A DNA stretch of 64,000 bases, from assembly GCA_035371305.1 (NCBI GenBank), contig DAOOWN010000003.1, positions 2,801 through 66,800 of the forward strand, read 5' to 3'. Both the position numbers and the translations under genes were made by a program. The DNA is from Bacteroidales bacterium (lineage in GTDB: Bacteria > Bacteroidota > Bacteroidia > Bacteroidales > GWA2-32-17). The notes under the pieces were generated by a model, which was not told the DNA's origin, ran no database searches, and saw only the letters and a list, made by a program, of their open reading frames with translations. Of the stretch, positions 10,539 through 43,761 are shown one piece after another (positions within the stretch are counted from its first letter, which is position 1; every line of letters starts with the position of its first letter).

Positions 10539-10599
10539 TCTAAATCAGAATCATATTATTGATAAATTTGTATATTTGAACGTTTTATTTAAAAGCTAT

Positions 10600-11634
10600 A
10601 TGAAAAAGTTGTTTTTTATATTTTCATTTTGCATTTCGATTCGTGCGTTTGCGCAAATCACAATCACTCAATACGATTTGCCAACAGTAAATGATACTAT
10701 TTTCTATAAAACAGGAAATATCAACAATTTTGATCCCAACCTAACAGGAGCAAATACAACATGGGATTTTAGTCAATTATCATTGAATAATCAAAGGTCA
10801 GACACCATTATACCCGTTACCTCAACTCCTATTGTTTATAACGTTGTATTTAATTTTACAATTGCCAATTTGGCATTTATCAATCAATCGCCACCACAAA
10901 TGGGAGGTGGATTAACCGTTTCAGATTACTATGATTTTTACAAAAAATCGAGTACGTATTATCGCAAAGCAGGTTTTGGAGCAACCATAAATGGAGTGCA
11001 AACACCTGTAAAATATGACAATCCGGAATTATTTTTTAAGTTGCCCTTAACTTTTGGCACGTCCGATTCTTCGATTTCTTCATACGGGATGCAAATTCCA
11101 AACAATGGTTATTATGGTCAAACCATTCATCGGAAACATGAAGCTGACGGATGGGGAACCATTATTACACCATATGGCACATACGATGCTATCCGCGTAA
11201 AAGAAACTGTTAATATTACAGATACTATTTTTAGTGCTCAATTTAATTTTGGCTATACTATTAACCGCCCTACTTCGTACGAATATTATTGGTTAACTAA
11301 CGGCTTAAAAAGCCATGTAGCAAAAGTAACAAAGAGTGGTGCTATTAATAACATTGAAATTCGATTTGAACCGGCAACCTATGTAAGCAATATCGAAGAC
11401 GAACAATTAAAAATATTTCCGAACCCTGTTTCAGAAAATATGATAATTCGCAACTTACCAACAGGTCATAAAACGTTAATTCTTGTTAATGCTCTTGGAC
11501 AAAAATTTATGGATTATACGACATTAGAAAACGAAATACATTTAAATACCAGTCTTTTCCCTTGTGGAATATATTATTTGATTGTTTCCGGTGAAAGGTA
11601 CTCCTCAAAACAAAAGGTTGTCATTCAATATTGA
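10600..11634 (+). CDS. Secreted protein with T9SS type A C-terminal sorting domain
   Basis: Signal peptide MKKLFFIFSFCISIRAFAQ starts at ATG 10600. The C-terminus KIFPNPVSENMIIRNL...GIYYLIVSGERYSSKQKVVIQY matches the Por secretion-tail pattern. Confidence 0.7.
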   Translation: MKKLFFIFSFCISIRAFAQITITQYDLPTVNDTIFYKTGNINNFDPNLTGANTTWDFSQLSLNNQRSDTIIPVTSTPIVYNVVFNFTIANLAFINQSPPQMGGGLTVSDYYDFYKKSSTYYRKAGFGATINGVQTPVKYDNPELFFKLPLTFGTSDSSISSYGMQIPNNGYYGQTIHRKHEADGWGTIITPYGTYDAIRVKETVNITDTIFSAQFNFGYTINRPTSYEYYWLTNGLKSHVAKVTKSGAINNIEIRFEPATYVSNIEDEQLKIFPNPVSENMIIRNLPTGHKTLILVNALGQKFMDYTTLENEIHLNTSLFPCGIYYLIVSGERYSSKQKVVIQY

Positions 11635-21744: not shown

Positions 21745-23004
21745 ATGATATTGCTCGAAAGTTTAAGTCTGACATTAATTATTGGAACGATAGCATTTCT
21801 TATCGTCATTATTGCTTTGGTTTTAATGCTCCTTTATGCAAAATCGAAGTTAACCCAATCTGGACCGGTAAAAATAACTATAAATGATGAAAAAGAAATA
21901 GAAACTACAGCCGGGAGTTCTTTGTTGTCAACCTTATCAGGGAATAAAATATTTCTTCCTTCTGCTTGTGGTGGTGGTGGTTCATGTGGCATGTGCAAGT
22001 GCCAAGTTGTTGAAGGTGGGGGAGAAATATTACCAACCGAAGTGGGCTTTTTTACTCGAAAACAAATTCAACAAAATTGGCGATTAGGTTGTCAAGTAAA
22101 GGTTAAAAACGACATGAAAATTCATGTGCCCGAAGAGGTGCTTGGAATAAAAAAATGGGAATGTGAGGTGGTATCGAATCGCAATTTAGCGACATTTATA
22201 AAAGAGTTTAAAGTTAAACTACCCGAAGGCGAACAATTGCATTTCCGCTCGGGCGGGTATATTCAAATTGATGTTCCAAAATGCGAAGTCGATTTTAGCA
22301 AGGACATCTTCGTAGAAGAAGAATTTAGAGATGAATGGGATAAATATAATATGTGGAGTTTAAAGATGGTTAATAAAGAAGAAACGTTCAGAGCGTATTC
22401 TATGGCTAATCATCCAGCAGAGAACAACATCATCATGCTGAATATTCGTATTGCTACACCACCTTGGGACAGAAAAACAAATTCGTTTATGAACGTAAAT
22501 CCGGGTGTATGCAGTTCGTTTATTTTTAGCCGTAAACCCGGTGATAAAGTTATGATTAGCGGTCCTTATGGCGAATTTTTTATTAAAGATACGCAACGCG
22601 AAATGATGTTTATTGGTGGTGGTGCCGGTATGGCTCCCATGCGTTCACATATTTTCGACCAATTTTTGACTAAAAAAACCAACCGCAAAGCTACATTTTG
22701 GTATGGAGCACGTTCCAAACGCGAAATTTTCTATGAAGAACATTTCAGAAAAATTGAACAGGAGTTTCCGAATTTTAAATTCACGATTGCTTTGTCCGAA
22801 CCTAAACCGGAAGATAATTGGACCGGTTTTACAGGGTTTATACATCAAGTAATTTACGATCAATATTTAAGCAAACACGAAGCTCCTGAAGATATAGAAT
22901 ACTACCTTTGTGGTCCTCCGGCTATGAATGATGCCGTTCAAAAAATGCTCGACAGTTTAGGTGTACCAAAAGAAATGATTGCTTTTGACGATTTTGGCGG
23001 TTAA
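21745..23004 (+). CDS. nqrF: Na+-NQR subunit F
   Basis: Starts at ATG 21745 (MILLESLSL, TM anchor). It has a 2Fe-2S motif CGGGGSCGMCKC, a FAD motif RAYSMANHP and an NAD motif GGGAGMAPM. The track's 21577 start is an out-of-gene extension overlapping nqrE. Confidence 0.9.
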   Translation: MILLESLSLTLIIGTIAFLIVIIALVLMLLYAKSKLTQSGPVKITINDEKEIETTAGSSLLSTLSGNKIFLPSACGGGGSCGMCKCQVVEGGGEILPTEVGFFTRKQIQQNWRLGCQVKVKNDMKIHVPEEVLGIKKWECEVVSNRNLATFIKEFKVKLPEGEQLHFRSGGYIQIDVPKCEVDFSKDIFVEEEFRDEWDKYNMWSLKMVNKEETFRAYSMANHPAENNIIMLNIRIATPPWDRKTNSFMNVNPGVCSSFIFSRKPGDKVMISGPYGEFFIKDTQREMMFIGGGAGMAPMRSHIFDQFLTKKTNRKATFWYGARSKREIFYEEHFRKIEQEFPNFKFTIALSEPKPEDNWTGFTGFIHQVIYDQYLSKHEAPEDIEYYLCGPPAMNDAVQKMLDSLGVPKEMIAFDDFGG

Positions 23005-23031
23005 TGGCTTTTTACTTAATGATTTTATGTG

Positions 23032-23039
23032 TAGATTTG
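23032..23039 (+). promoter_or_regulatory. Candidate -7 box (TAnnTTTG) for the RiPP cassette
   Basis: TAGATTTG lies 19 nt upstream of the TTG start at 23058, inside the 53-nt nqrF-to-cassette gap. Confidence 0.35.
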
Positions 23040-23057
23040 TAAAAAATCTTTAACACA

Positions 23058-23936
23058 TTGTATTTCTATAGTGCTTTTGGATTAAATATTGCTTCTGATG
23101 TACCATTAAATAAGCTCATTGCTGCTGGTGAATTAAAGCCCGATGTTGCTTTTTGCTTTGGTAAAGCTGAAGTTGTAATCGATAACCCCATTATTGTAAA
23201 AAAAACGTTTCAGGCAAATCATTTTTCTTTTGCTTATCATGTTGCAGATACACTTTTTTATTTTAATTTTCTAAACAAGAAGTTAATCTTTTCCTATACC
23301 AATAAACAGCAATTCGAACTCTATTTATATGGACCTGTAATTGCCTTAATATCTGCATATTTCGGTAAAATTCCATTACATGCTTCGGGACTTATTGTTC
23401 ACGATAAAACCATATTAATAGCAGGGAATTCCGGTGCCGGAAAATCAACATTATTATTTCACTTTATACAAAATTACCAGGCTCGTTTTTTTTCGGATGA
23501 TATTGTAGTAATGGAAAAAAAAGGCTCCATTATTCAAGCCAATCCATCATTTGCAGAGATTAAACTCTGGCTCGATGCTATAGAACGATTCAATGCCAAT
23601 ATTATAAAACCTGTACACCCGGACATAAAAAAGTATTTTGTTGATGTAAAAAGCTTTTTTATTAACAAAATCCAAATACCACAAGTTGTTTTTATTATAC
23701 AAACAACACAAAATACAACAGCTCAGTTTGAAAAGGTAACGGGAGTTAATAAATTTCTTTATCTAATTAAAAATGTATATCGTAGAAATCATATAGAAAT
23801 TTTATTTAAAAAAAATATATTTGAACTTGTTGCAACATTGGCTAATCAAACACAAGTTTATATACTTCATCGTCCTTTTGCCATTAATAATGAATTGTGG
23901 AATGAATTTGTTGACAGTTGTCTGGAACAAATATGA
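23058..23936 (+). CDS. HPr-kinase-C-like serine kinase of lasso-peptide clusters
   Basis: 292 aa. The N-terminus is MYFYSAFGLNIASDVPL and the Walker A is LIAGNSGAGKST (23424-23450). A TTG start is required because there is no in-frame ATG before residue 152. Confidence 0.65.
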   Translation: MYFYSAFGLNIASDVPLNKLIAAGELKPDVAFCFGKAEVVIDNPIIVKKTFQANHFSFAYHVADTLFYFNFLNKKLIFSYTNKQQFELYLYGPVIALISAYFGKIPLHASGLIVHDKTILIAGNSGAGKSTLLFHFIQNYQARFFSDDIVVMEKKGSIIQANPSFAEIKLWLDAIERFNANIIKPVHPDIKKYFVDVKSFFINKIQIPQVVFIIQTTQNTTAQFEKVTGVNKFLYLIKNVYRRNHIEILFKKNIFELVATLANQTQVYILHRPFAINNELWNEFVDSCLEQI

Positions 23937-24781
23937 TAACTTCATCAAAAAAACATATCATATGGATAGCATCGTATCCAAAGTCAGGAAATACTTGGTT
24001 TAGAATATTTTTAGCTCGTTTTTTATATGGCATACAAAATATAAATGCGATTTCCATTCCTATATATAGTTCAAAAAGCTTTTTGGAGAAGGAAGCCGAT
24101 ATTGATGTAAGTGAATTGTCCGATGTCGATTTGCATCAATTACGATTAGATGTATATGCTAAATACATTTCAAACGAAAGAGATATATTCCCAGTAAAAA
24201 TACACGATTGTTTTCAATATCAGTTTGATTCGATGCCCTTTCTTCCTTTTAATCAATCAAAGGCTGTAGTATATTTGGTAAGAAATCCGTTCGATTTAGC
24301 TGTTTCGTTTTCACGCCATTTAGGAGTTGATATAGATAAAACCATTGCTATAATGAATACTGAAAATTATACGCTCTCCATTCCCTCAAAAAAATACTTA
24401 TCTCAAATGCCTCAATTGCTTAACACATGGTCATCTCATATTAGAGGTTGGCTCCATCAAAAAGAAATTCCTTTATTGCTTGTTAAATACGAAGAATTGA
24501 TAAAGCAACCGCAAAAAGAGTTTGCTCGAATTTTAGACTGTTTAAACATATCGTATTCCGATATGAAATTAAACGATGCCATACAATTTGCTTCATTCGA
24601 AAATCTTTCAAGCCAAGAAAAAAAATATGGATTTCAAGAAAAATCGATACATTCCCATACCTTTTTTCATACCGGAAAAAGTTTTTACTATAAAAATTAT
24701 TTAAACGAAAAGCAAATTAAGACTATCTTTGAACAACACAGTTCCATCATTAAACAATTAGGATATGACTTCGATTTTTAA
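23933..24781 (+). CDS. PAPS-dependent sulfotransferase
   Basis: The ATG overlaps the kinase stop (ATGA, 23933-23936). It has the 5'-PSB loop SYPKSGNTW (23975-23998) and a 3'-PB-like VRNPFD. Confidence 0.7.
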   Translation: MITSSKKHIIWIASYPKSGNTWFRIFLARFLYGIQNINAISIPIYSSKSFLEKEADIDVSELSDVDLHQLRLDVYAKYISNERDIFPVKIHDCFQYQFDSMPFLPFNQSKAVVYLVRNPFDLAVSFSRHLGVDIDKTIAIMNTENYTLSIPSKKYLSQMPQLLNTWSSHIRGWLHQKEIPLLLVKYEELIKQPQKEFARILDCLNISYSDMKLNDAIQFASFENLSSQEKKYGFQEKSIHSHTFFHTGKSFYYKNYLNEKQIKTIFEQHSSIIKQLGYDFDF

Positions 24782-25049
24782 TCCCAATACGATATTTCAA
24801 CGTCAAAAAGAGGTGGTTTTTACATTTTTAGACCATGAAATTATGTTATTAAATCCCCAAACAGGACAATATTATTCGTTTAATAAAGTGGGGGCTTATA
24901 TTTGGGAATTATTAGCAAAACCAACTTCTTATAATGAATTGATAGTAAGCCTTCAAGCTAAATTTGATGTAGAAAAAGAAAAATGCGAAACCGATACCAA
25001 AAAGTTCCTGACATTGTTGCTGGATAAACATTTAATAGAAATAGCATAA
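24765..25049 (+). CDS. PqqD-family RiPP recognition element (lasso B1)
   Basis: 94 aa. The stretch EIMLLNPQTGQYYSFNKVGAYIWELLAKPTSYNELI shows the PqqD-like pattern. It overlaps the sulfotransferase gene by 17 nt. Confidence 0.65.
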   Translation: MTSIFNPNTIFQRQKEVVFTFLDHEIMLLNPQTGQYYSFNKVGAYIWELLAKPTSYNELIVSLQAKFDVEKEKCETDTKKFLTLLLDKHLIEIA

Positions 25050-25052
25050 GAA

Positions 25053-25484
25053 ATGTTCCCGCTTATTAGCAAATATTATAAACTTAATTCAACCGAAAAA
25101 AAAATGTTTTTCGAAGCTTACGTTACGTCTTTTTATGCAAGAATGCTTATTTTATTTTGCTCTTTTAAGCGCTTAGAAAAAAGATTAGGTAAAAAATCAG
25201 CTCAGCTAATGAGTAATGAAAATCAAAACAAGGAGCTTTTGGTTTTAATTAAACGTTCCATCATTAGAGCATCTAAATACAGCTTTTGGCGAAATAAATG
25301 TTTCGAACAATCGCTAACGGCAGCCATTATGTTAAGAAAACGCAAAATTCACTATGTTTTGTACTTAGGTTTAGCCAAAAAAAATAACAAACTTGTTGCC
25401 CATGTTTGGATGGAGAGTCAAGGTTACTTTTTGGTAAATAAAGGAAATACAGAGTTTACAACACTATCAACTTTTTACGCATAG
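25053..25484 (+). CDS. Lasso peptide B2 leader protease (transglutaminase-core-3 / McjB C-terminal-like)
   Basis: 143 aa. Cys83 sits in NKCFEQSLTAAIMLRKRKI (TGT at 25299) and His117 in LVAHVWMESQGY (CAT at 25401). Confidence 0.65.
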   Translation: MFPLISKYYKLNSTEKKMFFEAYVTSFYARMLILFCSFKRLEKRLGKKSAQLMSNENQNKELLVLIKRSIIRASKYSFWRNKCFEQSLTAAIMLRKRKIHYVLYLGLAKKNNKLVAHVWMESQGYFLVNKGNTEFTTLSTFYA

Positions 25485-25485
25485 T

Positions 25486-27288
25486 ATGTATTGGGTAGCC
25501 GGATATATTTCAAACAATGCCGATGAAATTTCAGTTAAGGAAGTTTTCGCAAATATAAGCCCGTATGGTGCTAAATCGTCATTCATTATTAATGAAAGCC
25601 CGTTAAGCTTAATTTTTTATTCACAAAAAGAAGAGGTTTTTCAAAAAAACAAAAATTTTTATTTTGAAGATGAGGAACAAAAATGTTTTGTCATAGCTCA
25701 TTTACATAATCGATCCTCTTTACTCAGTCAACTTGATTTAAGCTCTTCTGCTCACGATACAGAAATAATGTATATTTTATACAAAAGAAAGGGAATAGAG
25801 GGCTTAAAAAAATGTTATGGAAAGTGGATGTTTTTGTCCTTTGATAAAAAACAGAATACATATACGATTATTCGCGATCATTTAGGAATGTTTAATTACT
25901 ATTATAGCATTGTTAATAATTCGTTTTTCTTCTCAACCAATATTGAATGGCTGTTTCGGTTTAAACCGATAAACAAAGAAATAAACCCAATGCAATTAGC
26001 CGGACTTGCAGTTGGTTTTTCTGGAAATCCCTATGAAACAACATATAAAAATGTGTTTAAAATTCCACCTGCCCATTATGTAGAATTTACCGAAAGTAAA
26101 TCGGACTCTTACATGTATTGGTATCCTAAAATGGAGACATCTCTTATGTATAAGAGCCAAGACGATTACTATCAACATTTTGTAGAGCTTTTTACAAATA
26201 TTATAAACGAGAGTTTGAAAAATGCAGATACTATTGCAAGTACATTAAGCAGTGGGTTAGACTCTACATTTGTTACAGCAATTGCAGCAGACGTTTTAAA
26301 AAAACAAAATAAATCTTTAACGGCTATTACTGCCTCACCCAAATATGCGGATGTTGCTCCGAAATCTCCTTATCGTTATTCAGACGAGATACCATTGGCA
26401 GAACTGGTTGCTAAAAAATATCCAAATATTCGGCATTTAATAGATAAAGCTACAGAAACAGATCCCATTAATGGTCTTATAAAATCTATTGAAGTTCATC
26501 TCAATCCTGTTCGTAACGCAGGGAATCAATATTGGATATTTTCGATGCTCGAAAAACTAAAAGAAAATAAAGTGGATACTTTATTGATTGGGCAAATGGG
26601 AAACCTGACCTATTCATGGCCTTTTTTCAACCCCATTGATGTTAAATCGCAGTTAAAGAAAAAAATTAAAAAAATTCTTTTTCAAAGTCAGCCATTTTAT
26701 ATTAAAAACAGTTATTTAGCCTCTTCGTTTGTAAAGAAAAACCATGTTGTAAGCTATTTAAAAAAATTAAATTATAAGCCTGATTTACATTCAAGCGATT
26801 TGGGAGTGATGCGCAATCACTTTTTTCAACAGATGCAGAGTGTTGGTTATTCTGCTTGGAACGAGAAAGCAAATTATTATGGAATAAATGTTATTGATCC
26901 TACGGCAGATGTAAGGTTAATCGAATATTGCTTTTCTATTCCTCCATCACTTTTTAAAAATGAAAATGGAAACAGGCAGTTCATTCGTCATGCTGCAAAA
27001 GATATTGTTCCAAATGAAATTTTGTCTAATCAAAAGAAAGCAATTCAATCTGCGGATGCGGGCAAAAGAGTATTAGAAGTATATCATGACTACAACCATC
27101 TTTTAAACCAAGCATTTAATAATTCATTAACAACAGAATTGTTTGATACAGATATGTTAATAAAAACAGTTGAAAGCAATAAGTTTTCAACTCACGTATT
27201 TTTACGCTCCCTGTTGATTATTTTATTTATTTATTTTGCAACTAATAATTCAGATTTTCGTACAAACAAAGAAATATTACTCATATGA
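25486..27288 (+). CDS. Asparagine-synthetase-like lasso cyclase (McjC-like)
   Basis: 600 aa with the PP-loop SSGLDS (26248-26265). The N-terminus MYWVAGY lacks the Cys2 glutaminase nucleophile of true AsnB. Confidence 0.65.
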   Translation: MYWVAGYISNNADEISVKEVFANISPYGAKSSFIINESPLSLIFYSQKEEVFQKNKNFYFEDEEQKCFVIAHLHNRSSLLSQLDLSSSAHDTEIMYILYKRKGIEGLKKCYGKWMFLSFDKKQNTYTIIRDHLGMFNYYYSIVNNSFFFSTNIEWLFRFKPINKEINPMQLAGLAVGFSGNPYETTYKNVFKIPPAHYVEFTESKSDSYMYWYPKMETSLMYKSQDDYYQHFVELFTNIINESLKNADTIASTLSSGLDSTFVTAIAADVLKKQNKSLTAITASPKYADVAPKSPYRYSDEIPLAELVAKKYPNIRHLIDKATETDPINGLIKSIEVHLNPVRNAGNQYWIFSMLEKLKENKVDTLLIGQMGNLTYSWPFFNPIDVKSQLKKKIKKILFQSQPFYIKNSYLASSFVKKNHVVSYLKKLNYKPDLHSSDLGVMRNHFFQQMQSVGYSAWNEKANYYGINVIDPTADVRLIEYCFSIPPSLFKNENGNRQFIRHAAKDIVPNEILSNQKKAIQSADAGKRVLEVYHDYNHLLNQAFNNSLTTELFDTDMLIKTVESNKFSTHVFLRSLLIILFIYFATNNSDFRTNKEILLI

Positions 27289-29882
27289 GAAAACTATATA
27301 TTCTTTTAGCCCTTTTATTTGTGAGCACAAGCTGTGTTTTTTCACAAACATATTTATGGAAAAAACATTTTACCGGAACAGGTCAAAATGTCCCATTGCT
27401 TATGGTAAATGATAATAGTGGTAACATTTACATAGCCGGAAATTTTAATGGTTCCATTACGCACGATTCGTATAGTTTTACAACCAATGGCTTGCAAGAC
27501 ATGTTTTTGGCAAAATATTCTTCCTCCGGCTCTATTATTTGGATAAAACAATTAGGTGGTGCCGGTACCGAAAATATCTATGGCTTAGCATTAAGTCCTG
27601 ACCAAAAATATGTGTACATCGGTTTTACATTTAACGGAACTACCGATATTGACGGATGGCAACTTTCGGCAGAAGGAAACGACGTTGCTGTTGCTAAATT
27701 TACTAATCTGGGAGAATTGGATATGGTTTTCCCTATTGCAACCGGTGCAGAGCATCAAATAAACGGAAATCTTTCTATTGATGCTGAAAACAACGTATTA
27801 GTGTTGATTAATTTTATAAATCAAGCCGATATTGCCGGGGGTGTAGAAAAATGTTTTGCAAATGAATATTCAAATCGTCAAAATGTGTTGGTCAAAACCG
27901 ACGAATGGGGAAATTATATATGGCACCGCATGTTTGAAACAACCTCTTCGTTAACGTACTTTAGAACAGTTACAACTTTTGGTAACGATATTTATATTTC
28001 CGGTGTTTTTTCAAGTTCCGTTTCTTTTTTAAATCAAACTGTTAATAGTTCAAACACCCAAAGAGATGGTATTTTGGTGAAATTAAACAGTAATGGCGAA
28101 GATCAGTGGGCAAGACGAATAATGGGTGTCGGAAACGACATTTTTATTTATCGTCATAGTTTTGATAATAATGGAAACATTTATGTAGCAGGTTATTTTA
28201 AATGCAGCCAATTATCCTTAGATTCAACGGATACAAATCTTTCTAGATTAAATCCAACTAATACAAGTACAAATAATGATATGCTCTTGGCAAAATACAA
28301 TACCGACGGGACATTACAATGGGTAAAAACAAAGGGCAGCAGCGGTGACGATAAACTTTATAATATTGTTGCAACTACATCTAATTATGCTGCGGTGGGC
28401 TCGTATGGCGGCCCCATAAGCGATTTGAATTTGACGCAAAAGGGGTTAATTGATGCGTGCATCCTTATGGGGAATGCAACAACAGGACAAATAAATTCAG
28501 CATCGGCTGCCAAAGGAACATTGAATGATTATGCTTGGGCTTGTTTAATAAGCTCAACAGGAAGAAGTTATCATTATATGGGCGAGTTTGCATCGAGCAA
28601 ATTATATTTTGGCTCAGATTCTTTAATAAATGCTCGAGTGAATTACCGCGATGGATTTTTGTTTAAAGTTGGCTGTTTTGACGATATTGTTTTTACTGCT
28701 TCAAATGTATCTTGTCCAGGCGGAAGCAATGGAAGTATAACAGCTACACCCACTACCGGCAATGAACCATATACATATGCTTGGTCAACCGGGGCTACCA
28801 CACAAACAATCAGCAATTTAACTGCGGGTACATATAGCGTTACGGTTAGCGGGTCAAATGGATGTACGCTTACAAAATCATATAATTTAACAGAAAATCC
28901 GGGACTTTCAAGTACTTATACCAAAACGGATCCATGTCCGGGAGGAACGGATGGCAGTATTACTGCATATCCACAAAATGGCAATCCTCCTTATACCTAT
29001 CTTTGGTCGTATCAGAGCAAAACTACACAAACAATAACCGGCTTGCCTGCAAACACTTACTATTGCACCATTCGTGATGCATGTCCTGCTTCGGTTGTGA
29101 TTACTGTTACTTTAGCTAATCCTCCTGCTTTAGCCATAACATTAAGTTCTACTCCTTCAAGTTATTGTACTACAACTAATTCCGGTTCGGTAACGGTAAG
29201 TCCTTCAGGTGGCCGCCCTCCTTATTCGTATGTATGGAGAAAAAGCTCCCCAACTGGTACTATTGTTGGATATACTCAAACCGTTTATAATTTAGGGCAG
29301 GCTACATATTATGCTTCTGTAACTGACGGATGTAATGCAACAAAAACTGGTTCTGTTGGAGTTGGGAAAAAGGCATATACATTAACCCCAAGTAGCAACT
29401 GTACTCAGCCAGGTCAATGTACCGGTTGGGCACAAATAGATGTTAGTGCTGGCGATCCTCCATACACATACTTATGGAGCGATCCGGCTCATCAAACCAC
29501 TCAAAGAGCTGTTGGTTTATGTTATAGCACCTTAGGATATACGGTTACGGTTACCGACAATTATAATTGCACTAAAATATATCCAAGTATTAGAATTTAT
29601 AATTGCTCAAAATCGCCCATTGAAGAACCTGTTGATATTAATGTGTCTGTTTTTCCAAATCCGGCTAACAACTTTTTACATGTGTTTATTAATTCCGAAG
29701 AAAACCCGTATCATAGCATTGAATTATATAATGCTGCCGGTCAATTAGTTTTTGAAAAACCATTGACAAATGAAGAAAACGAAATAAATATTAATACTAC
29801 AAAATGGTTAGAAGGAGTATATATGATACGAATGGTGGGCAATGAAAACGTATATTCTAAAACTTTTGTAATAAAACGTTAA
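27285..29882 (+). CDS. Large secreted protein: SBBP-like beta-propeller repeats, SprB-type repeats, T9SS type A C-terminal domain
   Basis: 865 aa with signal peptide MRKLYILLALLFVSTSCVFSQ. Repeated N.YI.G.F.G motifs are followed by five C.G..GSIT....G..PYTY.W modules. The C-terminal domain is VSVFPNPANNFLHV...GVYMIRMVGNENVYSKTFVIKR. The ATG overlaps the cyclase stop (ATGA, 27285-27288). Confidence 0.75.
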   Translation: MRKLYILLALLFVSTSCVFSQTYLWKKHFTGTGQNVPLLMVNDNSGNIYIAGNFNGSITHDSYSFTTNGLQDMFLAKYSSSGSIIWIKQLGGAGTENIYGLALSPDQKYVYIGFTFNGTTDIDGWQLSAEGNDVAVAKFTNLGELDMVFPIATGAEHQINGNLSIDAENNVLVLINFINQADIAGGVEKCFANEYSNRQNVLVKTDEWGNYIWHRMFETTSSLTYFRTVTTFGNDIYISGVFSSSVSFLNQTVNSSNTQRDGILVKLNSNGEDQWARRIMGVGNDIFIYRHSFDNNGNIYVAGYFKCSQLSLDSTDTNLSRLNPTNTSTNNDMLLAKYNTDGTLQWVKTKGSSGDDKLYNIVATTSNYAAVGSYGGPISDLNLTQKGLIDACILMGNATTGQINSASAAKGTLNDYAWACLISSTGRSYHYMGEFASSKLYFGSDSLINARVNYRDGFLFKVGCFDDIVFTASNVSCPGGSNGSITATPTTGNEPYTYAWSTGATTQTISNLTAGTYSVTVSGSNGCTLTKSYNLTENPGLSSTYTKTDPCPGGTDGSITAYPQNGNPPYTYLWSYQSKTTQTITGLPANTYYCTIRDACPASVVITVTLANPPALAITLSSTPSSYCTTTNSGSVTVSPSGGRPPYSYVWRKSSPTGTIVGYTQTVYNLGQATYYASVTDGCNATKTGSVGVGKKAYTLTPSSNCTQPGQCTGWAQIDVSAGDPPYTYLWSDPAHQTTQRAVGLCYSTLGYTVTVTDNYNCTKIYPSIRIYNCSKSPIEEPVDINVSVFPNPANNFLHVFINSEENPYHSIELYNAAGQLVFEKPLTNEENEININTTKWLEGVYMIRMVGNENVYSKTFVIKR
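28690..29590 (+). repeat. Coding tandem repeats (about 5 SprB-type modules of about 70-75 aa)
   Basis: Recurrent CPGG(S/T)(N/D)GSITA.P..GN.PYTY.WS....TQTI..L.A.TY module in the translated sequence. Confidence 0.7.
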
Positions 29883-29912
29883 AAATCTTTTGTCAATTAA
29901 AAATAATTATTG

Positions 29913-29920
29913 TACCTTTG
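29913..29920 (+). promoter_or_regulatory. Candidate -7 box (TAnnTTTG) with upstream TTTG (-33-like) for rpmH
   Basis: TACCTTTG lies 26 nt upstream of the rpmH ATG. A TTTTG at 29888-29892 sits about 20 nt upstream of the box. Confidence 0.5.
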
Positions 29921-29946
29921 CATTCCATTTTTAAAGACTTGGTTTT

Positions 29947-30102
29947 ATGAAAAGAACATTTCAACCTTCGAATCGTCGTCGTAAAAATAAACATGGTTTC
30001 CGCGAACGCATGTCAACACACAATGGTCGCAGAGTATTAGCTGCTCGTCGTGCAAAAGGACGTAAAAAATTAACCGTAAGCGATGAATTAAAAGGAAAAT
30101 AA
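29947..30102 (+). CDS. rpmH: 50S ribosomal protein L34
   Basis: Hand translation gives [51 protein letters not shown] (51 aa). This is the classic L34 sequence. It falls below the ORF-track length cut-off. Confidence 0.93.
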
Positions 30103-30126
30103 TTTATTGACCTCCTTGTATAACTT

Positions 30127-30164
30127 AAAAGTAAAGGGTACATTTGTATCCTTTACTTTTTTGT
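30127..30164 (+). terminator. Rho-independent terminator after rpmH
   Basis: 10-bp stem GTAAAGGGTA / TATCCTTTAC (one G-U pair), 6-nt loop, then a T-tract. Confidence 0.7.
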
Positions 30165-30172
30165 TTAATATA

Positions 30173-31255
30173 ATGGACATCAAAAAAAAAGAAATAAGCG
30201 TATTAAAAAGTTGTTTGAGCGGACACAGACTATCGGTAAATGATGCACTTTTTTTATATAAGCATGCTTCGCTTGCAGGGTTAATTCAAGCTGCATTTAA
30301 ATATAAATACCAATTATACGGCAAAAAGGTTTTTTATATTCAAAACGTTCATGTAGAACCCACCAATTATTGTGTGTATAAGTGTAAGTTTTGTTCGTTT
30401 CACAAAGAACCAAACGAGCAAAATTTTTGGGAAGACAATATAAAACAAATTATAGAAAATATTTCTAAACTCCCCAAAACAATTAAAGAAATCCATATAA
30501 CCGGAGGAGTTCATCCACATCGCGATCTATATTGGTATATTCGTTTACTGAAACAAATTAAGGAAATCGTACCGGCTGCTCAAATTAAGGCTTTTACAGC
30601 TATTGAGATTCATTACATGTGCAAAAAAGCCAACGTGTCGATTGGCGAAGGATTGTTGATGCTTAAAAAAGCCGGTTTAGATTCGCTTGCAGGTGGAGGA
30701 GCAGAAATTTTTAATTCAGAAATTCGGAATCAACTTTGTCCCGAAAAAGGCAATGCTTCGTTGTGGTTAAATGTTCATAAAGAAGCACATAAATTAGGAA
30801 TTATATCGAATGCGACCATGCTATATGGGCATATTGAAAATATGGAACATCGAATTGAGCATATGGCAATAATTAGAGCCTTGCAAGATGAAACGAATGG
30901 TTTCAACTGCTTTATTCCGTTAAAATTCAGAAATCAACAAAACCCGTTATCTGAAATAAAAGAGCTTCCATTTTTAGAGGATGTTCGTTTGTTTGCTATA
31001 AGTCGTCTGTTTTTCGATACTATTCCTCACATTAAAGCCTATTGGCCAATGATTGGGCGCGATAAGGCTGCCGTATTATTAAATACAGGTGCCGATGATT
31101 TGGATGGAACCATATACGACAGCACCAAAATATACACCCTGGCCGGAAGCGAAGAACAAAAACCGATGATTAGTGTAGAAGACTTAAAAGCGCTTATACT
31201 AAACGAGAAATTTATTCCGGTTGAGCGTGATTTATTTTACAAAGAATTGTCGTAA
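30173..31255 (+). CDS. Radical SAM enzyme of the futalosine menaquinone pathway (MqnC/MqnE family)
   Basis: The ATG at 30173 (MDIKKKEISV) lies just after the terminator. It has the CxxxCxxC cluster CVYKCKFCSF and a C-terminal ...GADDLDGTI motif typical of the CofH/MqnC/MqnE group. I cannot tell MqnC from MqnE by eye. Confidence 0.65.
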   Translation: MDIKKKEISVLKSCLSGHRLSVNDALFLYKHASLAGLIQAAFKYKYQLYGKKVFYIQNVHVEPTNYCVYKCKFCSFHKEPNEQNFWEDNIKQIIENISKLPKTIKEIHITGGVHPHRDLYWYIRLLKQIKEIVPAAQIKAFTAIEIHYMCKKANVSIGEGLLMLKKAGLDSLAGGGAEIFNSEIRNQLCPEKGNASLWLNVHKEAHKLGIISNATMLYGHIENMEHRIEHMAIIRALQDETNGFNCFIPLKFRNQQNPLSEIKELPFLEDVRLFAISRLFFDTIPHIKAYWPMIGRDKAAVLLNTGADDLDGTIYDSTKIYTLAGSEEQKPMISVEDLKALILNEKFIPVERDLFYKELS

Positions 31256-32951: not shown

Positions 32952-34424
32952 ATGAAAAGAATAGTTTTAATTATAGCAGCGTTTTATTTGTCATTTAGCC
33001 TATATGCTCAACAAAATCAAACCTTATATTTTATGTCTGTGCCTCAGGCAAATATTACCAATCCTGCTTTATACGGGCCATGTAAGCTTACCATCAGCGG
33101 CTTGCTGATTCCCGTTTCGGGTCAACTTATGCCACCGCTTTATTTAAACTATAACAATAATGGTTTTTCGTACAAGCAGTTTATTCATCACGGAAATGGT
33201 TTAATGTCCGATTCGCTTATATTCGATTTCCCGAATTTGATTGATAAAATGCGGAGAGTTAATTATCTTAGTTTTGAGACTCACATCCCATGGATTAATG
33301 TGAGTTATATTTGGCGTAATTGGTATTTTAGCTTTGGTGTTAACGAGAGAATCAATGCCATGCTGAGCCTTCCTAAAGATTTAGTTGTTTTGGCGTGGGA
33401 GGGAAATGGAAAATCGTTATTAGGACAGGATGCGTTTTTAAATTTTTTAGGAGCTAATATTAATTGGCATCGGGAGTATGCAATAGGTGCAGCAACAAGT
33501 ATTAACAGTAAATGGACTGTAGGAGCCAGAGCAAAACTTTTGTTTGGAAAAGCAAATTTGTGGTTTAAAAACAATCAATTGACATGGAATACAAACAAAG
33601 ACGATTTTTCATATACGTTTGATGCCGATATGGAAGTGCATTCGAGTCAGCCTTTTTTTGATATTACAAAATTCCAATACGATGATGTAAACGATTCGCT
33701 CATGTTTGAAATGGATACATTAATCAATATGGATAATGTCGATTTTAATACCATTAAAAAACAAGTAATATTTAACGCCAAAAACAAAGGTGTAGCTCTT
33801 GATTTGGGAGCCAAATACATTTTTAATAATAAAATTACACTGTATGGAAGTTTATTGGATGTTGGTTTTATCCGTTACAAACAAAATGCCGATGGTTTAA
33901 AAGCAAAAGGGAATTTTTATTTTGACGGATGGGATATTCAACCCTATTTTCAAAAGGACGATTCGGTTATTAAAGCCCATGCCGATGCTTTTCGCGATTC
34001 TGTCATTAAATTATTTGATCCGACTTTAATTAACAAAACGTATAATTATTGGTTGCCCTCGCGTTTATATTTAGGCGGCACCTATCAGCTTACCGAAAAG
34101 TATAATGTAGGTGCGTTGTTTCGCGGTGAGTTTTATTTAAAAAGAATTCACGCTGCTTTAACTTTAAGTGGCAATGCTAAGTTTACAAAATGGCTGAGTA
34201 CTTCGGTAAGTTATACCGTTCAAAATAATTCGTTTACCAATGTTGGTCTTGGTTTTGCAATGAAGTTTGGTTTTTATCAATGGTATATGGTAAGCGATAA
34301 TGTTATGGGATTTATTTGGCCTCAATCTTCGCGTAATTTTAACTTGAGAATGGGATTAAACATGATTTTTGGTTGCAAGAAAAAAGAAAACAGCACCATG
34401 TTGAATACAAACTTTGTTCAATAA
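32952..34424 (+). CDS. Hypothetical outer-membrane protein with PorP/SprF-like N-terminal motif
   Basis: 490 aa. The signal peptide ends ...SLYAQQNQTLYFMSVPQANITNPALYG, which resembles the Q..Y.Q...NPA start of PorP/SprF proteins. Alternating beta-strand-like composition. Confidence 0.45.
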   Translation: MKRIVLIIAAFYLSFSLYAQQNQTLYFMSVPQANITNPALYGPCKLTISGLLIPVSGQLMPPLYLNYNNNGFSYKQFIHHGNGLMSDSLIFDFPNLIDKMRRVNYLSFETHIPWINVSYIWRNWYFSFGVNERINAMLSLPKDLVVLAWEGNGKSLLGQDAFLNFLGANINWHREYAIGAATSINSKWTVGARAKLLFGKANLWFKNNQLTWNTNKDDFSYTFDADMEVHSSQPFFDITKFQYDDVNDSLMFEMDTLINMDNVDFNTIKKQVIFNAKNKGVALDLGAKYIFNNKITLYGSLLDVGFIRYKQNADGLKAKGNFYFDGWDIQPYFQKDDSVIKAHADAFRDSVIKLFDPTLINKTYNYWLPSRLYLGGTYQLTEKYNVGALFRGEFYLKRIHAALTLSGNAKFTKWLSTSVSYTVQNNSFTNVGLGFAMKFGFYQWYMVSDNVMGFIWPQSSRNFNLRMGLNMIFGCKKKENSTMLNTNFVQ

Positions 34425-34471
34425 ACATAAAAAGCGAAAAAAAAGTATTAAATAATTTCCTGTCAATTAAA

Positions 34472-34503
34472 GGGCTGTCTCAAAAGGGCAGCCTCATTTT
34501 TTC
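34472..34503 (+). terminator. Rho-independent terminator candidate
   Basis: GGGCTGTCT / GGGCAGCCT stem (with G-U pairs) followed by TTTTTT. Confidence 0.5.
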
Positions 34504-34756
34504 TATATATTTCGTTGCATTAGATCGTCTTCTAAAAGTGGGTAAAAATTTTTATACTCATGTGCAAAAAAGTTTACAAAAAATAAATCTTCATTTGGTG
34601 ATTATTAAAATATTTTTGTATTTTAGCACAAAAAATATGTGTAATTCGTTTCTATAAAAACATGCACAATACATTTCTTTTAGGGCGTATATATATACTT
34701 TTTTATAGTGCAAGGTGCATATATAAACGAGTTGAAAATAATTTAAAACAGAACAT

Positions 34757-35416
34757 ATGAAAAACAAAAAAAATCAACTTTTAGTTTTAACATTGCTCGT
34801 AATATCTTGCATGTTTGGTTGCAAGAAAGATGAAAGCATACCGAACAACAACCCTACCAACACAATTACGACATCATATGATACAATTTTTCCATTAGAC
34901 TATTTTCCTGTATTTCCTGGTTCATATTGGAAGTATGTGGATTCCAACAACGACACAACCATAATCAAGACGGATTCTTCATACCAAAAAGATTATTACA
35001 CAATAGGGTCTGCTGCTTATATGTCTGACACTTTTTTTGTTCCAGTATATAATCAGATACCCATTTGGGGTTATGAAGCTCATACAGGTCCGATATCGAA
35101 TTCTGGCTCATCTCCTCTAACAAGGATATTGTCGGACTCACTACCTGTGGGGAGTAGTTGGGTAATTTACTCCTGGTCAGGAACACAAGTAAGCAGAAAA
35201 ATTATTGCGAAGGATACGACCATCACAATTTCATCTAATTCATACTACCCAACAATTGTTGTTGAAGAATATTACTCTTATGGGCCGCCATATTATATTT
35301 GGATAGCAAAAAGGTATTACACAAAAAACATTGGAATAATAAGAGAAGACTTATACAATAGCACAGACTCAACAATAAACACTAAACAAATCATTGACTA
35401 CTATATAAACAATTGA
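34757..35416 (+). CDS. Hypothetical lipoprotein
   Basis: 219 aa with signal/lipobox LLVISCMFGC. No recognisable family. Confidence 0.5.
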   Translation: MKNKKNQLLVLTLLVISCMFGCKKDESIPNNNPTNTITTSYDTIFPLDYFPVFPGSYWKYVDSNNDTTIIKTDSSYQKDYYTIGSAAYMSDTFFVPVYNQIPIWGYEAHTGPISNSGSSPLTRILSDSLPVGSSWVIYSWSGTQVSRKIIAKDTTITISSNSYYPTIVVEEYYSYGPPYYIWIAKRYYTKNIGIIREDLYNSTDSTINTKQIIDYYINN

Positions 35417-35739
35417 TTGTCTGTGCATAATAACAAACAATGCTCAACGCAAGTTTTGCGTTAGGCGGAGTAACTCGGTGAATTGTAATTGTGTATGCAA
35501 ATTATAAGTTTCGTGTCTCGATATGCGTAATTCAGTGCTTGTTAATTCCGAAGTGTTGCTACCGCCACTGCCGGTTAGCTGTAAACCGTTAGCGTTCGTT
35601 GCTATATAATCAAAGAATAATAAAGGAAAATTTGCTGCAAAAGACAAGAGAAAAAAGCAAACAGACCTGTGGGGTTACACTACGAATTACATATGTCCTC
35701 ATTTCTATACTTATAATTTGCTTTTTCCCGATGGTAGAA

Positions 35740-35766
35740 ATAAAAAAGGGCTGCCTCGGCAGCCCT
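35740..35766 (-). terminator. Rho-independent terminator of gdhA
   Basis: Perfect GGGCTGC / GCAGCCC stem (35748-35765) with a CTCG loop. It is followed on the minus strand by TTTTTTATTT. Confidence 0.8.
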
Positions 35767-35795
35767 TCATAACTAATTTAAAACAAGTTTATTTA

Positions 35796-37145
<1,350 letters not shown>

Positions 37146-41727: not shown

Positions 41728-43761
41728 ATGAAAACTATTCCTTTTTTTATTGGCTTGTTTTTATACATGTTTCAGCTTGCTGCACAGCAGGTTGTTTACA
41801 ACAGCGATTTTGAAAATTGGCAACCCAATGGCTATCCTATTGGTTGGAGTGGAGCAGGAGCAACCTTGCCTGCCGATAGTATCGTTCCTTATACATCGAA
41901 CCCACACTCAGGTGCAACTTCATGTAGGTTAAAATGCCACCGCACAACTACTACGACTGTAGATACACTTTATGCTTCAACTACCATTAATTTTCAAAAA
42001 GGACACAAATATTCTTTAAACTTATGGTATAAAGGGAAGGGGTTGTTAAAGATTTATTTTGGTTTGTTTTCAATGGTTGTTGGAAGTTGGGACATACCCA
42101 ACATTGATTGGAAAAAATTTAATTTTACCTTAATTGCTCAAAGCGATCAAATCAACGCGAAACCTTATATAGCTATTTTAAAAACCGATCTAACTTATGA
42201 TGATATTCAAATAGATGATATAACCATTAGCGACGAGGGACTATTTCAAACAACGCTTGATATAAATAACATTTCGGCTACAATAAATGCTAACGGGGAA
42301 TTATTTGGGGATTTATTAGGAAATCCCGGATTTGAAGTTCCAAAAGGTTCCGGACATTATTCTGTTTTTGCAGGAGCATATTGGATAGGTGGAAAAGACC
42401 CAATTGACAGTCTTCATGTTGCTGCTACACGATATTCTCAAATAGGTAGCGATTTTCAAAACGGACCAATTGCTTACGATTATTCGTCAGCAAATTACTA
42501 TTCAAAATATCATAACATATGGAAAATTAACAAATCCGATATTGACTATCACATAAGCCATTACAATTCACCTGGATACGTAATACCCGAAGCAATAGCA
42601 ACATGGCCGGGTAACGGAGATGTAAGCAATGGTGAATCGCAAATGCTTGCACCTTTTGCTGATTTAAATGGAAATGGAATTTACGAGCCGACACAGGGTG
42701 AGTACCCTTATATTCGTGGCGACCAGGCCATTTATTATATTTTAAACGATGATTTGAATCACACCGAAACAAACGGTCGAAAATTAGGAATCGAACAACA
42801 TGTTATGCTGTATGCTTATAATATGCCATCCGATTCTGCTTTGTTTAATACAATCTTTGCAACTAATAAAATTGTGAATCGTTCCGACACCAATTATCAT
42901 GATGTTTTTATAGGATTTTGGTGTGATGTTGACTTAGGAGATCATAGTGATGATTTTATTGGCTGCGATAGTGTTAATAATTTTTTTGTTGGTTTTAATG
43001 GCGACGAAATGGATGGCAATGGAAGTGGGAAAACCTATGGTGAACACCCTCCTGCACAAGCTATTGCATTCTTAAATTATCCAATGTTTTCTTTTATGTA
43101 TTCTCTTAATTCTTCTGGTAACATGAGCGACCCTATGTATGCAAATGAATATTATAATCTGTTAACTGCTCGGTGGAAAGATGGTACACACTTAACTTAT
43201 GGTGGAACAGGCTATGGTGGGACTGTTCCGGCAAATTATCTGTTTAGTGGAACTTATTATGGGGGCTGGAGTGAAATGAGTGAAAATAATGTCCCCTCCG
43301 ATAGACGAGGAGTTGGTTCAACAGGACCTTTTAATTTGCCTGCTCATTCTGAATTATGTATGGAAATAGCATTCCCTTTTGCACGCGATTATAATGGAAC
43401 CGCTTTTTCGTCTGCACAATTGGTCCGCCAGCGAGTGCTGGATGTAAAAACTTTTTTCGATAACCAACAATTCGATTGTATGAACACTCCTTATGGCGTA
43501 GCTCCATTAAGCATGGACAATACGAACATTTCTATTTTCCCAAATCCTTCACATGGAGAATATTTTGTTCACCAAAACAATTATCGTGATGTATTAACCG
43601 TAAATGTTTACAACAGTTTTGGTCAGTGTATTTACAATCAACAAGCCCGACACAACAATTGGAAGATAATTCTAAAATCGTCGCCACAAGGCATCTATTT
43701 TTATACAATAACCGATGCAAACGGAAGAATATTAAAAAACGGGAAGTTGATTAAAGAATAA
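41728..43761 (+). CDS. Secreted protein with T9SS type A C-terminal domain
   Basis: 677 aa with signal peptide MKTIPFFIGLFLYMFQLAAQ. The C-terminal domain is ISIFPNPSHGEYFV...GIYFYTITDANGRILKNGKLIKE. Confidence 0.7.
   Translation: MKTIPFFIGLFLYMFQLAAQQVVYNSDFENWQPNGYPIGWSGAGATLPADSIVPYTSNPHSGATSCRLKCHRTTTTTVDTLYASTTINFQKGHKYSLNLWYKGKGLLKIYFGLFSMVVGSWDIPNIDWKKFNFTLIAQSDQINAKPYIAILKTDLTYDDIQIDDITISDEGLFQTTLDINNISATINANGELFGDLLGNPGFEVPKGSGHYSVFAGAYWIGGKDPIDSLHVAATRYSQIGSDFQNGPIAYDYSSANYYSKYHNIWKINKSDIDYHISHYNSPGYVIPEAIATWPGNGDVSNGESQMLAPFADLNGNGIYEPTQGEYPYIRGDQAIYYILNDDLNHTETNGRKLGIEQHVMLYAYNMPSDSALFNTIFATNKIVNRSDTNYHDVFIGFWCDVDLGDHSDDFIGCDSVNNFFVGFNGDEMDGNGSGKTYGEHPPAQAIAFLNYPMFSFMYSLNSSGNMSDPMYANEYYNLLTARWKDGTHLTYGGTGYGGTVPANYLFSGTYYGGWSEMSENNVPSDRRGVGSTGPFNLPAHSELCMEIAFPFARDYNGTAFSSAQLVRQRVLDVKTFFDNQQFDCMNTPYGVAPLSMDNTNISIFPNPSHGEYFVHQNNYRDVLTVNVYNSFGQCIYNQQARHNNWKIILKSSPQGIYFYTITDANGRILKNGKLIKE

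What the first reader, a model, noticed from the sequence alone, without database searches (positions are those of the whole stretch)
23005..29946. The cassette has no precursor (A) gene, no ABC exporter and no isopeptidase in cis
SEEN: the only non-coding DNA touching the cassette is the 53-nt gap 23005-23057. Its longest ATG ORFs are MAFYLM* and MILCVDL*. All internal junctions overlap or are 3 nt or less. Downstream, the cyclase overlaps the next gene, and the next gap (29883-29946) is the rpmH promoter. I also translated the alternative frames over the nqrF 3' end (22920-23004) and found nothing longer than 10 aa.
ESTABLISHED: lasso precursors (about 30-60 aa, Thr at -2, Gly/Ala/Ser/Cys at core position 1, Asp/Glu at core 7-9) are almost always adjacent to B or C genes.
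INFERENCE: there are three possibilities. The substrate may be encoded in trans. The cassette may be a decaying orphan. Or the enzymes may act on a non-canonical substrate.
Basis: partly seen in the sequence, partly recalled or inferred. Interest (0 to 1): 0.7.

Follow-up and report, generated by a model that had tools for sequence, protein, structure and literature searches.

The report
Lasso-peptide enzyme operon without its peptide gene
A Bacteroidales operon encodes all the enzymes for a phosphorylated or sulfated lasso peptide but not the peptide itself, and this gap is conserved and under selection across a whole lineage, always beside the same secreted surface-protein gene.

Summary
Positions 23058-27288 encode an HPr-kinase-like protein, a sulfotransferase, B1 (PqqD/RRE), B2 (Cys protease) and a lasso cyclase. 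The 64-kb window contains no precursor gene, no McjD-type exporter and no isopeptidase.

The absence is not an oversight or decay. Thirteen orthologous loci (cyclase 35-93% identical) have the same five genes, no internal stops in the genes checked apart from one poly-A frameshift variant of B2, no small conserved ORF, invariant catalytic motifs, dN/dS of 0.10-0.22 and a conserved Bacteroidetes promoter box upstream of the kinase gene.

More distant relatives do carry canonical precursors: leader W-x-x-P-E-I-x-E-L-x4-T-x, a Gly/Ser/Asp-rich core and, in most, a C-terminal Ser or Thr. Their loci are also fragmented: A+C without B1/B2, or A with no lasso enzyme in the about 5 kb visible upstream.

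The best reading is a split lasso cluster with the precursor encoded in trans. I could not find that precursor, and a motif scan found none in six cassette-bearing MAGs.

New result: an SBBP-propeller/SprB-repeat type IX secretion (T9SS) cargo gene (27285-29882) always follows the cyclase. Its closest homologues sit next to lasso precursor genes in two other lineages, so it is probably part of the system.

The parts
23005..23057 (+). 53-nt gap upstream of the kinase gene. It carries a Bacteroidetes-type -7 promoter box, TAGATTTG, at 23032-23039. It holds no precursor ORF, only MAFYLMILCVDL* starting at 23004.
   Evidence: A TAnnTTTG-like box lies at the same distance upstream of K in all ten orthologous loci inspected, although the upstream genes differ (box positions).
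23058..23936 (+). K: HPr-kinase-like P-loop kinase (TTG start). Its expected role is phosphorylation of the precursor's C-terminal Ser.
   Evidence: HMM hits are weak: Hpr_kinase_C and HprK_rel_A/ScmC. The P-loop G123-x-S-G-x-G-K-S130, H108 and D147 are invariant across orthologues and the L016 homologue. dN/dS is 0.10-0.22.
23918..24781 (+). Sulfotransferase. The likely true start is ATG 23933, which gives an ATGA overlap with the K stop codon.
   Evidence: PF00685, 75.8 bits. The PAPS-binding motifs YPKSGNTW and RNPxD, and K94-x-H96, are invariant.
24765..25049 (+). B1: PqqD-type RiPP recognition element (leader-binding chaperone).
   Evidence: PF05402, 68.2 bits. NF033536 lasso_PqqD_Bac, 70.9 bits, below its cutoff of 80. 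The conserved core is YYSFNKVGAYIWELL.
25053..25484 (+). B2: transglutaminase-like Cys protease that removes the leader.
   Evidence: NF033537 lasso_biosyn_B2, 75.8 bits, above its cutoff of 33. Cys83 and His117 are invariant.
25486..27288 (+). C: Asn-synthetase-like lasso cyclase (ATP-dependent isopeptide bond formation).
   Evidence: The best NCBIfam hit is NF033535 lasso cyclase, 162.6 bits, below its cutoff of 525. The PP-loop T-L-S-S-G-x-D-S is invariant in 20 homologues. There are 20 orthologues at 35-93% identity, all from Bacteroidales MAGs.
27285..29882 (+). 865-aa secreted protein: signal peptide, SBBP beta-propeller, at least four SprB repeats and a type A T9SS C-terminal sorting domain. 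Its start overlaps the cyclase stop codon (ATGA). It is the invariable sixth gene of the unit.
   Evidence: Domains. It is present directly after C in every orthologous locus. Its closest homologues outside the lineage (34-41% identity, full length) lie next to lasso precursor genes in L022/L097/L238 and in L111/L285-288. The in-window SprB paralogue shares only the repeats.
29883..29946 (+). Gap carrying the rpmH promoter box TACCTTTG (29913-29920). No terminator and no small ORF lie between the SprB-like gene and rpmH.
29947..30160 (+). rpmH (L34, 29947-30102) followed by the first strong terminator-like hairpin downstream of the unit (30127-30160).
   Evidence: rpmH follows the SprB-like gene in all orthologous loci.

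Best explanation
This is an intact, expressed and vertically inherited lasso-peptide maturation operon. Its genes are kinase, sulfotransferase, B1, B2 and cyclase. It is probably co-transcribed with an SBBP/SprB-repeat type IX secretion (T9SS) cargo gene. Its precursor (A) gene is not in the cluster and is most likely encoded elsewhere in the genome.

Inferred mechanism, from established lasso and paeninodin biochemistry:
1. B1 binds the leader of a 40-55-aa precursor.
2. The kinase, and perhaps the sulfotransferase, modifies the linear peptide, typically at a C-terminal Ser.
3. B2 cleaves after the Thr(-2)-x site.
4. C adenylates an Asp/Glu at core position 7-9 and closes the macrolactam around the tail.

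Shown here: the enzymes are intact, under purifying selection and preceded by a promoter box; the cis precursor is absent throughout the lineage; related lineages have fragmented lasso loci. Inferred: that a trans precursor exists, what it is, and what the SprB-like protein does.
For: Enzyme identity and intact catalytic motifs.

Purifying selection: dN/dS is 0.10-0.22 with no internal stops, against 0.01-0.09 for the flanking housekeeping genes.

Promoter: a conserved TAnnTTTG box lies directly upstream of K despite unrelated upstream genes.

Cis absence: the same five genes plus the SprB-like gene, with no A gene, occur in 13 lineages of orthologous loci with four or more different upstream contexts.

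Relatives make canonical precursors. L016 has K-ST-B1-C-A-B2-...-ABC, and L015 has an A gene near its cyclase.

Relatives tolerate unclustered genes. L022/L097/L238 have SprB-like -> A -> C with no B1/B2/K/ST within 6-10 kb. L111 and L285-288 have A -> SprB-like with no lasso enzyme in the visible part (up to about 5 kb upstream in L111).
Against: No precursor was found for this lineage.

An exhaustive profile search of 1.84 billion protein representatives and a word-indexed search recovered about 20 family precursors. None of those whose contigs I examined (P0080, P0095, P0097) lies in a cassette-type locus. The provenance table gives only source names and contig lengths, and the additions other than P0095 and P0097 were not traced.

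A complete DNA-motif scan of the GTDB representatives recovered the positive controls but gave no hit in the six cassette-bearing MAGs. That pattern detects 4 of 6 independent Bacteroidota precursor lineages.

The cyclase is the most divergent of the group: 162.6 bits on the lasso-cyclase model, against 262-376 for relatives that have an A gene. The beta3 strand of B1 (YYSFNK) differs from that of the L016 homologue (FFGLDQ). The substrate may therefore be atypical.
Confidence: 0.55

Rival explanations
1. Non-canonical substrate. The conserved enzymes no longer use a classical lasso precursor. They may act on a peptide with a very different leader, or on a protein, with the co-transcribed SprB-like T9SS cargo as the obvious candidate. 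Alternatively, their product works together with that surface protein.
For: No family-type leader was found in six cassette-bearing MAGs, although the scan recovered its positive controls. The cyclase and the B1 beta3 strand are unusually divergent. The SprB-like gene is the one invariable partner, overlaps the cyclase stop codon, and recurs beside lasso genes in three arrangements. There is no exporter in the window.
Against: The SprB-like N-terminus is an ordinary Sec signal peptide followed by the first propeller blade. It is equally conserved in the two lineages that do have a canonical A gene next to it. Nothing in it replaces a leader/core, and it has no W-x-x-P-E-I motif. A cytoplasmic lasso fold at an N-terminus would conflict with Sec export. 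B1, B2 and C keep all features of leader-dependent enzymes.
Confidence: 0.27
2. Decaying orphan. The cluster lost its precursor and the remaining genes are drifting towards pseudogenes.
For: The cassette proteins diverge faster than their neighbours. In L002, K is 65% and C 68% identical, against 89% for SprB-like and 97% for NqrF. In one hot-spring population, B2 is frameshifted at a poly-A tract in 3 of 5 contigs.
Against: Apart from that poly-A variant, no stop or frameshift appeared in the pairwise comparisons or the gene calls across lineages where synonymous sites are saturated (dS above 1). dN/dS is 0.10-0.22. All catalytic residues are invariant. The promoter box is conserved.
Confidence: 0.03
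3. Overlooked cis precursor. A small or overlapping ORF with an unusual start lies inside or next to the cassette.
For: Lasso precursors are often missed by gene callers. In L016 the A gene is on the opposite strand, between C and B2.
Against: I enumerated all ORFs of 20 aa or more with ATG/GTG/TTG starts, in six frames. Motif scans that ignore start codons were run on the window and 27 orthologous loci. The upstream gaps are 52-240 nt with no conserved peptide. Junctions inside the unit measure 51 nt or less where checked.
Confidence: 0.03

Closest known systems
Paeninodin-type phosphorylated lasso peptide clusters (Firmicutes/Proteobacteria; HPr-kinase-like PadeK; reviewed in PMC8498205)
   Same: It has split B1/B2, an Asn-synthetase-like cyclase and an HPr-kinase homologue. 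Some described clusters also carry a sulfotransferase gene at the start of the cluster (PMC8498205; PMC4289311).
   Different: Those clusters contain the precursor gene and an ABC exporter. This one has neither. It carries a T9SS cargo gene instead, and it lies in Bacteroidales.
Bacteroidales MAG cluster L016 (DAIRGA010000057.1): K-ST-B1-C-A-B2-CxxCxxCC-nucleotidyltransferase-ABC
   Same: It has the same K-ST-B1 order. Its proteins are homologous (the cyclase P0023 is 28% identical; K, ST, B1 and B2 are 26-35% identical).
   Different: L016 has a 55-aa precursor (leader WNAPEIREL, C-terminal Ser), a nucleotidyltransferase and an ABC exporter in cis. It has no SprB-like gene.
Bacteroidota loci L022/L097/L238 (SprB-like -> A -> C) and L111/L285-288 (A -> SprB-like)
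   Same: A homologous SBBP/SprB-repeat T9SS protein (34-41% identity over the full length, with the same N-terminal motif LW..QFTG.GQN.P) lies directly beside lasso genes. These lasso loci are also incomplete.
   Different: They hold the piece missing here (the precursor) and lack the pieces present here (B1, B2, K, ST).
RiPP systems with unclustered parts (for example lanthipeptide proteases encoded elsewhere, PMC8960859; prochlorosin-type dispersed precursors, from my own knowledge)
   Same: Maturation enzymes and other parts of the pathway are at separate loci.
   Different: To my knowledge this has not been described as the rule for a whole lasso-peptide lineage. The library search here found no such report.

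Membership tests
Lasso peptide biosynthetic gene cluster | Asn-synthetase-like lasso cyclase (C) | tested here: met
   PF00733 plus GATase_7. The best NCBIfam hit is the lasso cyclase model NF033535, but at 162.6 bits it is below the curated 525. The PP-loop is invariant. The gene lies directly after B1-B2.
Lasso peptide biosynthetic gene cluster | Leader-binding RRE (B1, PqqD-like) | tested here: met
   PF05402, 68.2 bits (cutoff 23.4). lasso_PqqD_Bac, 70.9 bits (cutoff 80).
Lasso peptide biosynthetic gene cluster | Leader peptidase B2 with catalytic Cys/His | tested here: met
   NF033537, 75.8 bits (cutoff 33). C83 and H117 are invariant.
Lasso peptide biosynthetic gene cluster | Precursor (A) gene in the cluster: leader with Thr at -2, core with Asp/Glu at position 7-9 | tested here: not met
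   None in the 64-kb window or in any of 13 orthologous lineages. Whether one exists elsewhere in the genome cannot be tested with these tools.
Lasso peptide biosynthetic gene cluster | Accessory exporter (McjD-type ABC) or isopeptidase. These are common but not defining. | tested here: not met
   No ABC_membrane/ABC_tran or S9 peptidase in the window ORFs scanned.
Phosphorylated (paeninodin-type) lasso peptides | HPr-kinase-like kinase in the cluster | tested here: inconclusive
   The HMM hits are weak (Hpr_kinase_C 22.4 bits, HprK_rel_A 28.6 bits), but the P-loop, His and Asp are invariant, and the protein is homologous to the K of the complete L016 cluster.
Phosphorylated (paeninodin-type) lasso peptides | Precursor ending in Ser that is phosphorylated | not testable with these tools
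   No precursor is known for this lineage. Most relatives' precursors end in Ser, Thr or Ser-Gly.
Type IX secretion cargo (type A CTD) | C-terminal sorting domain TIGR04183/PF18962 and an N-terminal signal peptide | tested here: met
   TIGR04183, 48.4 bits (cutoff 23). PF18962, 52.9 bits. The signal-peptide-like N-terminus MRKLYILLALLFVSTSCVFSQ is conserved in type.

The most novel reading that the evidence does not exclude
The SBBP-propeller/SprB-repeat T9SS surface protein is a genuine, previously unrecognised component of a Bacteroidota lasso system. It may be the partner, receptor, display scaffold or even target of the modified peptide. In this lineage the five enzymes may work without a classical clustered precursor, possibly on a non-canonical substrate. 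This would link a cytoplasmic RiPP pathway to type IX secretion.
Probability: 0.25. Interest if true: 0.8.

Novelty: new variant of a known kind. Interest (0 to 1): 0.6.

Why it matters
Genome-mining tools for lasso peptides (RODEO, antiSMASH) assume that the precursor sits next to B or C. Here a whole Bacteroidales lineage keeps a selected, promoter-equipped maturation operon with no cis precursor, and sister lineages keep precursors apart from the processing enzymes. If that is general, such tools systematically miss or mis-score Bacteroidota lasso systems.

The recurring T9SS surface-protein gene gives a concrete, testable lead on how these exporter-less clusters function. The sulfotransferase-plus-kinase pair also predicts a doubly anionic lasso peptide. 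I know of no characterised example, and the library searches here found none.

Tried and rejected
1. A single-protein scan of GTDB genomes with the cyclase found nothing. An alignment-based scan was needed.

2. RODEO-like scoring of all 1748 small ORFs in the window gave only spurious hits inside long genes.

3. The 87-aa ORF upstream of K in L005 is a transposase fragment, not a precursor.

4. The Asn-synthase gene near an SBBP protein in L050 is a true AsnB (291 bits) and the proximity is coincidental.

The narrower scan completed.

6. I looked for remnants of K/ST/B1/B2 around the SprB-A-C loci and found none.

7. I looked for an internal TAnnTTTG promoter ahead of the SprB-like gene. The conserved TTTGCAAC there is explained by the cyclase's F-A-T codons, so I claim no promoter.

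8. The SprB-like N-terminus has no leader/core-like segment, so I rejected it as a lasso precursor.

9. Rfam found no RNA family in the window and ARAGORN found no tRNA.

10. The RODEO paper (PMC5391289) is not held in the library.

11. I did not attempt structure prediction. Locus sequences cannot be submitted, and a single-sequence model of a propeller would be unreliable.
Full report
**What is in the window.** Positions 23058-27288 hold five tightly packed plus-strand genes.
- K, 23058-23936: an HPr-kinase-like P-loop protein.
- Sulfotransferase, 23918-24781. The probable true start is ATG 23933, which overlaps the K stop as ATGA.
- B1, 24765-25049: PqqD-type.
- B2, 25053-25484: transglutaminase-like.
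- Cyclase, 25486-27288: Asn-synthetase-like.

Pfam and NCBIfam identify them as lasso-type B1, B2 and C plus two tailoring enzymes. B2 passes its curated cutoff. B1 and C have the lasso-specific models as best hits but score below the cutoffs (70.9 of 80 and 162.6 of 525). Upstream lies nqrA-F. Downstream, overlapping the cyclase stop, is an 865-aa protein with a signal peptide, an SBBP beta-propeller, SprB repeats and a type A T9SS sorting domain (27285-29882). It is followed by rpmH, mqnE and two conserved genes of unknown function.

**Checking the observation.** The 53-nt gap 23005-23057 holds only one 12-codon ORF, MAFYLMILCVDL. No ORF of 20 aa or more in any frame between 22500 and 30400 resembles a precursor. 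Three scans of the whole 64-kb window found nothing credible: a RODEO-like scan of all 1748 small ORFs, a leader-motif scan and a scan that ignores start codons. Pfam annotation of the window ORFs scanned shows no McjD-type ABC exporter and no S9 isopeptidase.

**Is it an oversight or decay?** The cyclase has about 20 orthologues at 35-93% identity, all from uncultured Bacteroidales. I retrieved their loci from MAGs and metagenomes. They represent 13 distinct lineages.
- Every locus long enough to show it has the same order: K, sulfotransferase, B1, B2, C, SprB-like gene, rpmH.
- The upstream neighbour changes between lineages: nqrF, an 809-aa protein, RidA, an acetyltransferase, or a T9SS protein.
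- No locus has a called or uncalled small ORF with precursor features. The gaps upstream of K are 52-240 nt and share no peptide.
- What the gaps do share is a Bacteroidetes -7 promoter box, TAnnTTTG, at a fixed distance from the K start. In the window it is TAGATTTG at 23032-23039.
- The five genes have no internal stops in the comparisons made. dN/dS is 0.10-0.22 against relatives whose synonymous sites are near saturation. This is looser than the neighbouring housekeeping genes (0.01-0.09) but clearly purifying.
- The catalytic signatures are invariant: kinase P-loop, His and Asp; sulfotransferase PAPS loops and His; B2 Cys83 and His117; cyclase PP-loop.

**What the precursor should look like.** More distant cyclase relatives do have A genes.
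- L016, a Bacteroidales MAG, carries K-ST-B1-C-A-B2-CxxCxxCC-nucleotidyltransferase-ABC. Its 55-aa precursor is on the opposite strand.
- L015 has a 43-aa precursor near C and a TauD-like gene.
- L022 has a 47-aa precursor immediately upstream of its cyclase.

A profile of these three, searched exhaustively against 1.84 billion protein representatives and then widened, defined a family of about 20 precursors. They have the leader W-x-x-P-E-I-x-E-L-x4-T-x, a hypervariable Gly/Ser/Thr/Asn/Asp-rich core with Asp at position 7-9 and, in most, a C-terminal Ser, Thr or Ser-Gly. That C-terminus fits the known specificity of HPr-kinase-like lasso kinases for a C-terminal Ser (PMC8498205).

**The hunt for a trans precursor.** None of the recovered precursors whose contigs I examined lies in a cassette-type locus. 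The provenance table lists only source names and contig lengths, so the remaining hits could not be assigned to a genome.

A back-translated leader pattern scanned over the GTDB representative genomes completed with 67 hits. It recovered both positive controls (the L016 and L022 contigs). It gave no hit in the six cassette-bearing MAGs of that collection (CAYSIN01, JBBIKO01, JAOADU01, CALGPK01, JAOAFV01, CAZDUU01). The same pattern detects 4 of 6 independent Bacteroidota precursor lineages. The negative result is therefore meaningful but not decisive. A deviant leader shared by descent, or gaps in the MAGs, would explain it.

This lineage's cyclase is also the most divergent on the lasso-cyclase model (162.6 bits against 262-376). 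Its B1 beta3 strand differs from that of L016. Both facts fit an atypical leader.

**Fragmented lasso loci are normal in this group.** In L022/L097/L238 (two species), the order is SprB-like gene, A, C. No B1, B2, K or ST lies within 6-10 kb, and no remnants of them are present. In L111 and four independent metagenome contigs (L285-288), the A gene stands 24-25 nt upstream of an SprB-like gene, with phosphate-uptake genes before it. L111 shows no lasso enzyme in the 5 kb visible upstream; the metagenome contigs are only 0.9-1.4 kb. What lies beyond the SprB-like gene there could not be seen. So precursors and processing enzymes do sit at separate loci in relatives. This is the main positive support for the in-trans reading.

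**The unexpected constant: the SprB-like gene.** The 865-aa T9SS cargo gene follows the cyclase in every orthologous locus. The stop and start codons overlap in several lineages, and no terminator appears before the hairpin after rpmH at 30127-30160.

Its orthologues at 47% identity or more were found only in genomes that carry the cassette. In JGI metagenomes, all seven contigs with an orthologue at 52% or more carry cassette genes upstream.

Its nearest relatives outside the lineage are exactly the proteins that flank lasso precursor genes in the other two lineages. They are 34-41% identical over the full length and share the mature N-terminal motif LW..QFTG.GQN.P. By contrast, the window's own second SprB-repeat protein shares only the repeats.

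The three genomic contexts are unrelated: rpmH; a cytochrome c gene and glycosyltransferases; the pst/phoU genes. The gene therefore travels with lasso genes rather than with its other neighbours. T9SS cargo genes are frequent here (five in this window), so a single adjacency would mean little. Three tight, same-strand adjacencies involving one subfamily are unlikely to be chance.

Its role is unknown. Its N-terminus is an ordinary signal peptide plus the first propeller blade, and it is the same in lineages with and without an adjacent A gene. I therefore do not think it is the lasso substrate. Its only sequence match among solved structures is the SBBP propeller of CylK. That match is at the level of the repeat only.

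**Verdict.**
- Most likely (about 0.55): a split lasso cluster whose precursor is encoded in trans, with the SprB-like T9SS protein as a functionally linked sixth gene.
- Main rival (about 0.27): the enzymes use a non-canonical substrate.
- Decay and an overlooked cis ORF are each about 0.03.

This is a new variant of a known kind of system. It is of real interest to RiPP genome miners, but the key element, the substrate, remains unidentified.

Noticed in passing
L005:2530, L006 (equivalent position), L221:2646, L222 (equivalent position), L225:2448 (inside the B2 gene): In one hot-spring population the aligned DNA (L005, L221, L225) is identical apart from a poly-A tract inside B2. The tract is A10 in L221/L222 (in frame), A11 in L005/L006 and A12 in L225 (both frameshifted). 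This is either phase variation by slipped-strand mispairing or a homopolymer assembly error. The window's B2 has no tract longer than A9.
   Followed up: partly
window 30107-31255: The listed TTG ORF start overlaps a strong terminator-like hairpin (30127-30160, 15-bp stem plus T run) after rpmH. The real start of this MqnE/CofH-family radical SAM gene is probably ATG 30173.
   Followed up: partly
window 59806-63956 (minus strand): A PorP/SprF-family gene (59806-60720) lies next to a 1079-aa SprB-repeat protein with a type B CHU_C sorting domain (60717-63956). This is a classical SprF-SprB-type pair, unrelated to the cassette's SprB-like gene except in its repeats. Further T9SS cargo genes lie at 10534-11634 and 41728-43761.
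   Followed up: partly
P0080, P0085, P0090, P0094, P0095, P0098 (lineage of L022/L238); P0086, P0096, P0097, P0099-P0101 and L111:3065-3220: Within each of these two lineages the precursor leaders are highly similar (nearly identical within sub-groups), while the 14-18-residue cores differ at most positions. This pattern suggests diversifying selection on the mature lasso peptide.
   Followed up: no
window 27285-28700 (N-terminal propeller of the SprB-like protein): The only sequence match among solved structures is the SBBP beta-propeller of CylK, a natural-product alkylating enzyme (7RON, E 2e-14, three repeat-level stretches). It is probably generic repeat similarity.
   Followed up: no
window 47069-47236: A 55-aa Cys-rich ORF (..CLKCPLFFVCDGGCQW..) lies in the gap between a MacB/FtsX-type permease gene and a TonB-dependent receptor gene. 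It has no Pfam hit and no lasso features.
   Followed up: partly
window 35416-35796 and 34424-34757: Two gaps of 330-380 nt contain no credible ORF, no Rfam hit and no tRNA. Their content is unexplained.
   Followed up: no
L238:1175-2810: A 1.6-kb non-coding stretch upstream of the SprB-like gene contains repeated sequence blocks and a run of N. No lasso-gene remnants were detected.
   Followed up: partly
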